Source: a virus. From it: a stretch of DNA of 64,000 nt. The notes under the pieces were generated by a model. The model had not been told where the DNA came from and searched no databases. It saw nothing but the letters and a program-made list of their open reading frames with translations. Where the stretch lies: positions 16,171 through 80,170 of IMG/VR virus record IMGVR_UViG_3300020020_000001; one strand, written 5' to 3'. A program made the translations under genes and the position numbers. Below, piece after piece: positions 37,533 through 37,659 of the stretch (position 1 is its first letter; each line of letters starts with the position of its first letter).

Positions 37533-37659
37533 GTTGTCGGATATGGTTATGTCATCGTGTCGATTCGCAGGGAAGGACTCCAACCCTCATAACTGTCACG
37601 CAGACATTGCACTAGCCGTTGTGCTACCTGGGATAAACGATGTACTTCGACCCGACTAC
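37533..37659 (-). ncRNA. Y RNA #1 (tRNA-like domain in normal D-AC-T order)
   Basis: GUCGG-GUCGAA...CAUCGU-UUAUC ... ACGAUG...AUAU-CCGAC. Confidence 0.85.

What the first reader, a model, noticed from the sequence alone, without database searches (positions are those of the whole stretch)
37533..37659. Y RNA with a tRNA attached through its acceptor stem, the reverse of YrlA
Seen: inside the Ro stem, copy #1 reads CAGG, D arm (UAGCACAACGGCUAGUGC), hairpin UGUC-UGCGU-GACA, T arm (GAGGG-UUGGAGU-CCUUC), CCUG. That is normal tRNA order with an exposed anticodon-like loop. Copies #5 and #7 have the permuted T / closed acceptor / D order of YrlA, #3 keeps only a T loop, and #2, #4, #6 have none. 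Inference: independent tRNA capture events; #1 could bait anticodon nucleases or modification enzymes.
Basis: partly seen in the sequence, partly recalled or inferred. Interest (0 to 1): 0.75.

Follow-up and report, generated by a model that had tools for sequence, protein, structure and literature searches.

The report
Phage Y RNA with native-order tRNA
A soil phage that encodes the ring-shaped RNA-binding protein Ro60 also encodes seven partner "Y RNAs"; one carries a complete tRNA-shaped domain in normal tRNA order, which is a real and conserved but rare variant of a known design, and its "anticodon" loop is vestigial.

Summary
On the minus strand at 37535-37657 there is a Y-RNA-type closing stem. 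It carries the published Ro60 motif GNCGAAN0-1G (here GUCGAAG) and the UUAUC and AUAUCC motifs shared with six sister RNAs. The stem encloses a 7-bp acceptor-like stem with one mismatch, a D arm, a short hairpin and a T arm, in native tRNA order. A full-length Ro60/Rsr gene starts 615 nt downstream.

Orthologues sit at the same place in two related ~76-81 kb soil phages. Across the three RNAs 97% of pair cells are paired and 15 of 33 pairs show compensatory changes. A ~92%-identical strain carries 7 substitutions and one indel, and none breaks a helix.

The "reverse of YrlA" layout has a precedent: Chen et al. 2014 model D. radiodurans Yrn1 in this orientation. The "anticodon" loop is 5, about 3 and 3-5 nt in the three orthologues and is not conserved, so a role as anticodon-nuclease bait is unlikely. 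No donor tRNA can be identified.

Best reading: a Ro60-bound Y RNA whose effector module is an L-shaped, elbow-presenting tRNA mimic. No Rfam model detects it. It is a new variant of a known kind.

Noticed in passing: the Ro60 mRNA leader mimics a permuted Y-RNA stem, which suggests autoregulation.

The parts
37535..37657 (-).
37650..37656 (-). basal (Ro-binding) stem, 5' strand. It pairs with 37536-37542. GUCGAAG at 37645-37651 fits the published Ro motif GNCGAAN0-1G.
   Evidence: motif definition from PMC4201824
37536..37542 (-). basal stem, 3' strand (part of the shared ..AUAUCC-NNN motif)
37637..37642 (-). upper stem, 5' strand. It pairs with 37553-37558. The shared UUAUC motif (37632-37636) follows; its last two bases start the acceptor-like stem.
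37553..37558 (-). upper stem, 3' strand
   Evidence: an AC insertion in the related strain keeps the pairing
37627..37633 (-). acceptor-like stem, 5' strand. It pairs with 37565-37571: 7 bp with one C.C mismatch. Each orthologue has one mismatch at a different position.
37565..37571 (-). acceptor-like stem, 3' strand. No CCA follows.
37609..37624 (-). D arm: 4-bp stem and 8-nt loop AACGGCUA, with C at the position of G19
   Evidence: 3 of 4 pairs compensatory
37594..37606 (-). short hairpin at the anticodon-arm position: 4 bp (5 bp in the related strain) with the 5-nt loop UGCGU
37572..37588 (-). T arm: 5-bp stem and loop UUGGAGU, with G at the position of C56
35270..36919 (-). Ro60/Rsr gene (549 aa; TROVE and Ro60 vWA domains; full-length match to Rsr 2NVO and Xenopus Ro60 1YVP)
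38062..38163 (-). Y2: sister Y RNA without tRNA parts (weak Rfam Y_RNA match, 20 bits)
40347..40461 (-). Y3: sister Y RNA with a T arm only
42314..42410 (-). Y4: sister Y RNA without tRNA parts
42435..42585 (-). Y5: YrlA-type sister (T arm, closed acceptor, D arm)
42665..42746 (-). Y6: sister Y RNA without tRNA parts
42774..42920 (-). Y7: sister Y RNA that I read as permuted T / long closed stem / D order
   Evidence: the arm assignment is my reading of the sequence, not a tool result

Best explanation
Y1 is a gene for a Y RNA, a non-coding RNA bound by the phage's own Ro60/Rsr protein through its basal bulged stem. Its distal (effector) module is a complete, non-permuted tRNA-like domain. The acceptor-like stem is fused to the Ro-binding stem through a small internal loop. 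The D and T arms form a tRNA elbow at the far tip. The anticodon arm is reduced to a short structural hairpin.

It is probably cut out of a long tRNA-operon transcript. I infer that it then acts as characterised Y RNAs do: it gates Ro60 and/or tethers it to a partner that recognises a tRNA shape or a structured RNA end (PNPase in the known cases), and the compact tRNA fold also protects the RNA from nucleases. It does not decode, and it is not an anticodon-loop mimic.

Shown here: the sequence architecture, orthology by synteny, covariation in every helix, and the neighbouring Ro60 gene. Inferred: Ro60 binding, L-shape formation, processing, and the partner.
For: 1. Context. A full-length Ro60 gene lies on the same strand 615 nt downstream. 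The region is a tRNA array. No minus-strand promoter or terminator lies next to Y1.
2. Family. Seven RNAs share GGGUCG(R)...UUAUC...AUAUCC, with closing pairs that differ between copies but stay complementary. Y1 carries GUCGAAG, which fits the Ro motif GNCGAAN0-1G of Chen 2014.
3. Orthologues. L007:9495-9616 lies in the same gene order. L009:8839-8971 lies about 210 nt upstream of its Ro60 start. Their Ro60 proteins are 62% and 60% identical to the window's.
4. Covariation. 97% of cells are paired and 15 of 33 pairs change on both sides. 0 of 500 shuffles reach this, and slid controls give 33-48% paired. RNAalifold independently returns the same six helices.
5. tRNA core positions, read by me from the sequences: U8, A14, A15:U48, G18, A21, U54, U55, A58 and G53:C61 are present in all three.
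6. Elbow pair. The window copy has G at position 56, where 886 of 897 phage tRNAs have C and only 1 has G. In the same D-loop register it has C where the orthologues have G19. This is consistent with a swapped 19:56 elbow pair.
7. Strain variant. In a ~92% strain, the 7 substitutions and one 2-nt insertion fall in loops, or give G-U, or create a C-G pair. The DNA upstream of Y1 is unrelated in that strain.
8. Precedents. Phage Ro60, phage Y-like RNAs and host PNPase form a complex (PMC12135203). YrlA is an L-shaped tRNA mimic (10.1101/312249).
Against: There are no expression, binding or probing data. The single-sequence MFE fold is not the cloverleaf and is not more stable than shuffles (z = -0.44). 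The proposed fold is 2.4 kcal/mol above the MFE, which is also common for real tRNAs.

Only three orthologues exist, and the alignment used for pair counts was fitted to the model. No Rfam Y RNA, YrlA or tRNA model matches. The D and T stem sequences that are nearly invariant in YrlA are not conserved here, so the partner may differ. G56 in the T loop may prevent normal pseudouridine-55 formation. The phage encodes no RtcB, CCA-adding enzyme or RNA ligase that would point to a pathway.
Confidence: 0.75

Rival explanations
1. Pro-form that gets processed. The 7-bp acceptor-like stem stacked on the T stem, with a 3-nt unpaired 'leader' (UUA), makes Y1 an RNase P (and perhaps RNase Z) substrate. 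Cleavage would nick the Y RNA or release a ~70-nt anticodon-less tRNA mimic, and the Ro stem would serve as a chaperoned or regulated precursor scaffold.
For: M. smegmatis YrlA, the only YrlA with a 7-bp acceptor stem, is cut by RNase P and receives CCA in vivo (PMC4201824). Y1 and both orthologues have 7-position acceptor stems. Y1 lies in a tRNA operon that needs RNase P anyway.
Against: Each orthologue has one mismatch in the acceptor stem. No CCA is encoded, and the phage has no CCA-adding enzyme. The conserved Ro stem would be pointless if it were simply discarded. No data exist.
Confidence: 0.12
2. Decoy for host anticodon nucleases or anticodon-loop modification enzymes.
For: The phage carries 23 tRNAs, which is often linked to tRNA-targeting conflict (general knowledge). 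The hairpin at the anticodon position is exposed.
Against: The loop is 5 nt here, a triloop in L007 and a 3-5-nt GAAA-containing loop in L009, never the 7-nt U33-containing loop that such enzymes read. Its sequence is not conserved and it changes in a 92% strain.
Confidence: 0.04
3. A decaying tRNA pseudogene that happens to sit between inverted repeats, with no function.
For: ARAGORN calls it a tRNA with an abnormal anticodon loop. Rfam's tRNA model rejects it.
Against: The flanks carry the same Ro-stem motifs as six other RNAs. The fold is kept with 15 compensatory pairs across phages whose Ro60 proteins are only ~60% identical. Substitutions in a related strain avoid breaking helices.
Confidence: 0.03
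4. A cis-acting leader that controls the small ORF starting about 10-15 nt after its 3' end.
For: In the window and both orthologues a Shine-Dalgarno-like G-run follows within about 10 nt of the AUAUCC-NNN end.
Against: The downstream ORF differs between phages: the window has an extra small ORF and a tRNA-Ser that L007 lacks. The other six Y RNAs have no such constant neighbour. The architecture is that of a trans-acting Y RNA.
Confidence: 0.05

Closest known systems
D. radiodurans Yrn1 (Y RNA bound by Rsr; Chen et al. 2014, PMC4201824)
   Same: The Ro-binding stem is formed by the 5' and 3' ends, with both strands recognisable. It is encoded upstream of rsr on the same strand. The tRNA-like features run in native order (D-like, middle stem-loop at the anticodon position, T arm), opposite to YrlA. 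The middle arm has a non-standard loop.
   Different: Yrn1 has no full D arm and no variable loop, and dihydrouridine was not detected (paper's text). Y1 has a complete D arm, a 4-5-nt variable loop, a 7-position acceptor stem and all core tertiary positions. Sequence relatedness to Yrn1 could not be tested, because no Yrn1 sequence was available in the tools.
YrlA (Rfam RF02553; S. Typhimurium, M. smegmatis, mycobacteriophages)
   Same: It is a Ro60/Rsr-associated Y RNA whose effector module is an L-shaped tRNA mimic with D and T arms. It shares the GNCGAAN0-1G motif and a YUAY motif after the stem. It is encoded beside Ro60, often next to tRNAs.
   Different: YrlA is circularly permuted: T arm, closed acceptor, D arm, with the Ro stem in place of the anticodon stem. 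Y1 is unpermuted, its Ro stem extends the acceptor stem, and the anticodon arm is closed. The YrlA covariance model does not match Y1. The D and T stem sequences conserved in YrlA are not conserved in the Y1 type.
Canonical tRNA
   Same: Cloverleaf order, 7+5-bp acceptor/T stack, 4-bp D stem, 8-nt D loop with GG, 7-nt T loop starting UU with A58, and U8, A14, A21, A15:U48.
   Different: The 'anticodon' loop is 5, 3 or 3-5 nt with no U33. There is one acceptor mismatch and no free ends or CCA. It has G56/C19. Rfam's tRNA model gives no match at E<=10. The ARAGORN 'anticodon' differs in each orthologue.
Thermus phage phiLo Yrl1/Yrl2 with phage Ro60 (PMC12135203)
   Same: Phage-encoded Ro60 with phage-encoded Y-like RNAs upstream of the gene and a CGAA-containing bulged stem. 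That study shows Ro60 binding and a ternary complex with host PNPase.
   Different: As far as the passages read show, those RNAs are described as simple stem-bulge-stem Y RNAs, with no tRNA-like domain reported.

Membership tests
Y RNA (Ro60-associated ncRNA) | Encoded next to a Ro60/Rsr gene, typically upstream on the same strand | tested here: met
   Ro60 start at 36919 and Y1 3' end at 37535, same strand. The same arrangement holds in L007 and L009.
Y RNA (Ro60-associated ncRNA) | 5' and 3' ends pair into a long stem interrupted by a bulge or internal loop | tested here: met
   7-bp basal and 6-bp upper stems, 100% paired in three orthologues, with compensatory changes.
Y RNA (Ro60-associated ncRNA) | Ro-binding motif GNCGAAN0-1G on the 5' strand (Chen 2014) | tested here: met
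   GUCGAAG at 37645-37651; motif definition read.
Y RNA (Ro60-associated ncRNA) | Physically bound and stabilised by Ro60 | not testable with these tools
   Needs RIP or EMSA. No RNA sequencing run holds this DNA.
YrlA (RF02553) | Permuted order: T arm, closed acceptor stem-loop, D arm, with the Ro stem at the anticodon-stem position | tested here: not met
   Y1's order is acceptor, D, hairpin, T, acceptor. Sister Y5 does meet this feature.
YrlA (RF02553) | Match to the Rfam covariance model at or above 69 bits | tested here: not met
   No match at E<=10 for Y1. Y5 scores 40 bits.
Yrn1-type Y RNA | D-like and T arms in native order, with a middle stem-loop at the anticodon-arm position | tested here: met
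   Architecture, compared with the description in PMC4201824. The comparison is with the paper's text, not with the Yrn1 sequence.
Yrn1-type Y RNA | Sequence or CM homology to D. radiodurans Yrn1 | not tested
tRNA | 7-nt anticodon loop with U33 on a 5-bp stem, and a conserved anticodon among orthologues | tested here: not met
   The loops are 5 nt, a triloop and 3-5 nt. ARAGORN calls gcg, att and gaa.
tRNA | Match to Rfam RF00005 at or above 29 bits | tested here: not met
   No match at E<=10. The phage's 22 other tRNAs score 38-69 bits.
tRNA | D/T elbow and core tertiary positions (U8, A14, R15:Y48, G18, G19:C56, U54, U55, A58) | tested here: inconclusive
   All are present by sequence, except that 19:56 reads C:G in the window copy. 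Folding into an L-shape is not testable here.

The most novel reading that the evidence does not exclude
The acceptor-linked design is a switch. Because the tRNA mimic is joined to the Ro60-docking helix exactly where RNase P and 3' tRNA-processing enzymes cut, host tRNA processing would nick or sever the RNA. This would release either an anticodon-less mini-tRNA or free Ro60. If so, the phage holds two opposite topologies (YrlA-type and Y1-type) on one common docking stem to couple Ro60 activity to the state of the host's tRNA-processing machinery.
Probability: 0.1. Interest if true: 0.75.

Novelty: new variant of a known kind. Interest (0 to 1): 0.5.

Why it matters
Bacterial Y RNAs are thought to descend from tRNAs. 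The well-studied tRNA-like ones (YrlA) are circularly permuted, and the only native-order case in print, Yrn1, is an incomplete mimic. Here a complete, covariation-supported cloverleaf sits in a Ro60-docking stem in native order. It lies in the same genome, and on the same docking stem, as permuted and tRNA-free sisters.

This shows that the docking stem and the tRNA-like head are separable modules. It also shows that the D/T elbow is the part kept under both topologies, while the anticodon and the acceptor end are not. That narrows the search for the still unknown partner of the tRNA-like domain. It also gives Rfam-invisible Y RNAs a searchable definition.

Tried and rejected
The contigs of the closest Ro60 relatives (P0002-P0004, 65-72% identity) could therefore not be fetched.
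- Exact-pattern scans found only the two contigs already known in IMG/VR and in JGI metagenomes. A looser pattern gave six further matches, none of which has a closing stem or tRNA features when folded, so they are chance matches.
- Model R1 on 82 phage loci and 80 bacterial loci otherwise hit only ordinary tRNAs.
- No RNA holder was listed among the sequencing runs. Only soil DNA contigs could be laid.
- Donor-tRNA search: the core is 0.54-0.57 identical on average to phage tRNAs and 0.56-0.62 to its own orthologues, so no donor can be named.
- RtcB, CCA-adding enzyme and RNA ligase families are absent from the phage. The neighbouring ORFs are HNH endonucleases, an NlpC/P60 peptidase or unknowns.
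- The reviews PMC10870794 and PMC6047535 are not held, and the supplements of Chen 2014 are not held.
- Two of my regex scans failed through scripting errors and were redone.
- MAFFT mis-registers the Ro60-leader hairpins, so I did not count pairs on that alignment.

Full report
**What the window is.**
The window is part of an 80,170-bp IMG/VR virus record with direct terminal repeats, rated complete. It recurs only in soil metagenomes. Between about 26 and 44 kb the minus strand carries 23 ARAGORN tRNA calls (22 of them also match Rfam's tRNA model). It also carries a 549-aa gene (36919-35270) with TROVE and Ro60-vWA domains. That protein aligns end to end with D. radiodurans Rsr (2NVO, E = 3e-92) and Xenopus Ro60 (1YVP). 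The nearest named relatives are 'Ro-like RNA binding proteins' of Streptomyces phages, at 56-57% identity.

**Checking the observation.**
In RNA numbering i = 37658 - position, the parts are:
- a 7-bp basal stem (2-8 with 116-122);
- an internal loop holding GUCGAAG;
- a 6-bp upper stem (16-21 with 100-105);
- UUA;
- a 7-position acceptor-like stem (25-31 with 87-93, with one C.C mismatch);
- U8-A9;
- a 4-bp D stem with the 8-nt loop AACGGCUA;
- a 4-bp hairpin with the loop UGCGU;
- a 4-5-nt variable stretch;
- a 5-bp T stem with the loop UUGGAGU.

ARAGORN calls the core tRNA-Arg(gcg). No Rfam family (tRNA, YrlA or Y_RNA) matches at E<=10, either in a 22-kb search or in a 241-nt search. The single-sequence MFE is not the cloverleaf (z = -0.44). 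The proposed fold lies 2.4 kcal/mol above the MFE, so thermodynamics alone says nothing either way.

**The family of seven.**
Six more minus-strand RNAs share 5' NNN-GGGUCG(R)..stem..UUAUC and 3' ..AUAUCC-NNN: 38062-38163, 40347-40461, 42314-42410, 42435-42585, 42665-42746 and 42774-42920. The outermost pairs differ from copy to copy and remain complementary, with 0 mismatches in six copies and 1 in Y1. Y5 is a YrlA-type RNA (RF02553, 40 bits, below the gathering score). By my reading of the sequence, Y7 also has the T / closed stem / D order, Y3 keeps a T arm only, and Y2, Y4 and Y6 have no tRNA parts. GUCGAAG in Y1 fits the Ro-binding motif GNCGAAN0-1G, and UUAU fits the conserved YUAY of YrlA (Chen et al. 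2014).

**Homologues.**
Searching IMG/VR with an alignment of Ro60 relatives gave 80 loci, plus one from the single-protein search. A structure-aware scan and a covariance model built from the window and L007 (R1) found the same architecture in two places:
- L007:9495-9616, from a 75.8-kb contig with Ro60 62% identical;
- L009:8839-8971, from an 81-kb contig with Ro60 60% identical.

In both, this RNA is the last RNA gene before Ro60. In L007 the flanking genes are homologous to the window's, namely the upstream 'MAD..SGLPPTV..' ORF and the downstream Cys-rich ORF, so the RNAs are orthologues by position.

On the three-sequence alignment 97% of pair cells are standard pairs, and 15 of 33 pairs change on both sides. 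0 of 500 shuffles reach this, and partners slid by 1-3 columns give 33-48% paired. The D, middle and T helices each have 3-4 compensatory pairs. That alignment was fitted to the model, but RNAalifold predicts the same six helices on its own (38 pairs, 17 of them compensatory). The tRNA-like cores are only 56-62% identical to each other, so the fold is what is conserved, not the sequence.

**A population check.**
Logan contigs from another soil sample hold a ~92% strain. Within Y1 it differs by seven substitutions and one 2-nt insertion:
- Five substitutions lie at unpaired positions: the D loop, the middle loop, the discriminator position, the internal loop, and the already mismatched acceptor position.
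- One turns G-C into G-U in the D stem.
- One turns an A.G juxtaposition into C-G, which lengthens the middle stem to 5 bp.
- The insertion extends an ACAC run, so the upper stem is kept.

No helix is broken. With so few changes this is only weakly significant by itself (my binomial estimate is about 0.05). Upstream of 37673 that strain has unrelated DNA, so Y1 is a conserved island.

**tRNA-likeness and the elbow.**
By sequence, all three orthologues have U8, A14, A21, A15:U48, G18, U54, U55, A58 and G53:C61 (my reading). The window copy has G at position 56. Among 897 ARAGORN tRNA calls with a recognisable T arm in these loci, 886 have C there and exactly one has G; I take that one to be Y1 but did not confirm it. 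In the same 8-nt D-loop register the window has C where L007 and L009 have G19. A swapped 19:56 pair is what one would expect if the D and T loops really dock. This is a single event, so it is suggestive only.

**The 'anticodon'.**
The middle hairpin is 4 bp with a 5-nt loop here, 5-6 bp with a triloop in L007, and 6-7 bp with a 3-5-nt GAAA-containing loop in L009. ARAGORN therefore reports Arg(gcg), Asn(att) and Phe(gaa). The loop also varies in the 92% strain.

**Precedent and distribution.**
Chen et al. 2014 state that in D. radiodurans Yrn1 the orientation of the T and D arms relative to the 5' end differs from YrlA. They place the middle stem-loop at the anticodon-arm position (5-bp stem, 6-nt loop) and note that a full D arm and a V arm are lacking. 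Wang et al. 2018 call the tRNA resemblance of Yrn1 'less evident'. So 'reverse of YrlA' is the Yrn1 topology, and Y1 is a complete version of it.

Two more distant native-order examples turned up, each with a 5-bp stem and a 6-nt middle loop:
- L073:6253-6384 (Ro60 41% identical to the window's). It has a D arm, a middle arm and a T arm, a weak acceptor, and an extra 5' hairpin.
- L092:4714-4835 (a contig of a Chloroflexi MAG). Its acceptor stem is continuous with the Ro stem.

L014:2396-2520 has a D arm and a middle arm but no T arm. In total I found 5 native-order cases in about 160 Ro60 loci, so the design is rare but not confined to one lineage. I did not test that note.

**How it most likely works.**
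Shown: a conserved, structured RNA gene with a Ro-type docking stem lies beside a Ro60 gene.

Inferred from the family (Chen 2014; Wang 2018; the phiLo study PMC12135203, in which phage Ro60, phage Y-like RNAs and host PNPase form a ternary complex): Ro60 binds the basal stem, and the distal module gates Ro60 or tethers it to a partner.

In Y1 the acceptor/T stack continues the docking helix, so the D/T elbow is presented at the tip, about one tRNA arm away from Ro60, and the stub points sideways. The elbow is the only tRNA element common to Y1 and the YrlA-type sisters. I therefore favour an elbow- or shape-recognising partner, or a nuclease-proof cap. I put 0.75 on 'Ro60-bound Y RNA with an L-shaped native-order tRNA mimic' and much less on any particular partner. 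No minus-strand promoter or terminator flanks Y1, which fits excision from the tRNA-operon transcript.

An open rival (0.12) is that RNase P or RNase Z cut at the acceptor junction, as RNase P cuts M. smegmatis YrlA. The phage itself has no RtcB, CCA-adding enzyme or RNA ligase.

**Origin.**
No donor tRNA is identifiable, so 'independent capture events' stays a hypothesis. What can be said is that one docking stem carries at least four kinds of head in this genome. That points to modular exchange rather than the separate lineages proposed for YrlA and Yrn1.

**Side observation.**
Directly upstream of the Ro60 start codon the mRNA reads ..ACAUAUCC - short capped hairpin - GGGUCGAA - AUG (36917-36945). 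This is the two strands of the Y-RNA basal helix in swapped order, closed at the base. The same arrangement, with each lineage's own stem letters (for example AUGCCC..GGGCCGAAAGGA..AUG), precedes Ro60 in L007, L009, L014, many Streptomyces-phage-like loci and a few bacterial loci. The Ro motif overlaps the Shine-Dalgarno sequence. This suggests that Ro60 represses its own translation through a Y-RNA mimic and is titrated by the Y RNAs. I did not find this in the passages of the three papers I searched.

**Verdict.**
Y1 is a new variant of a known kind, of moderate interest.

Noticed in passing
window 36917-36945 (- strand); also L007:9925-9958, L009:9145-9183, L010:9915-9949 and others: The Ro60 mRNA leader carries the 3'-strand motif of the Y RNAs (ACAUAUCC), then a short capping hairpin, then the 5'-strand motif (GGGUCGAA), and then directly the AUG. 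This amounts to a circularly permuted Ro-docking helix on the RBS and start codon. It recurs with lineage-specific stem letters in many phage Ro60 loci and a few bacterial ones. It may be translational autoregulation of Ro60 by a Y-RNA mimic. I did not find it in the passages of the three papers I searched.
   Followed up: partly
L073:5981-6668; L092:4714-4835; L014:2396-2520: Other Ro60 loci hold arrays of Y RNAs with mixed heads. L073 has five in a row: simple, YrlA-type, native-order D/middle/T, T-first, and simple. L092 (a Chloroflexi MAG contig) has a native-order tRNA-like Y RNA downstream of Ro60, with its acceptor stem continuous with the Ro stem. L014 has a D arm and a middle arm without a T arm.
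   Followed up: partly
L006:6690-8140: A relative with Ro60 54% identical has about eight Y-RNA-like units whose docking stem reads GGACUGA...GGUUAUC...CAUGUUC instead of GGGUCG...AUAUCC. The two strands have changed together between phage lineages. I saw no native-order type there.
   Followed up: partly
window 38062-38159 (- strand): Y2 gives a weak match to the metazoan Y_RNA model RF00019 (20 bits, E = 6.4, far below the gathering score). It is the only copy to do so.
   Followed up: no
window 37673 upward and 37300-37530: In a ~92% strain from another soil sample, the sequence upstream of Y1 is replaced by unrelated DNA. The small ORF downstream of Y1 carries many substitutions and three small insertions near its start. 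This suggests gene turnover around a conserved RNA.
   Followed up: no
window 37278-37520 and 37185-37270 (- strand): Compared with L007, the window has an extra 80-aa ORF and a tRNA-Ser inserted between Y1 and the conserved Cys-rich small ORF that precedes Ro60.
   Followed up: no
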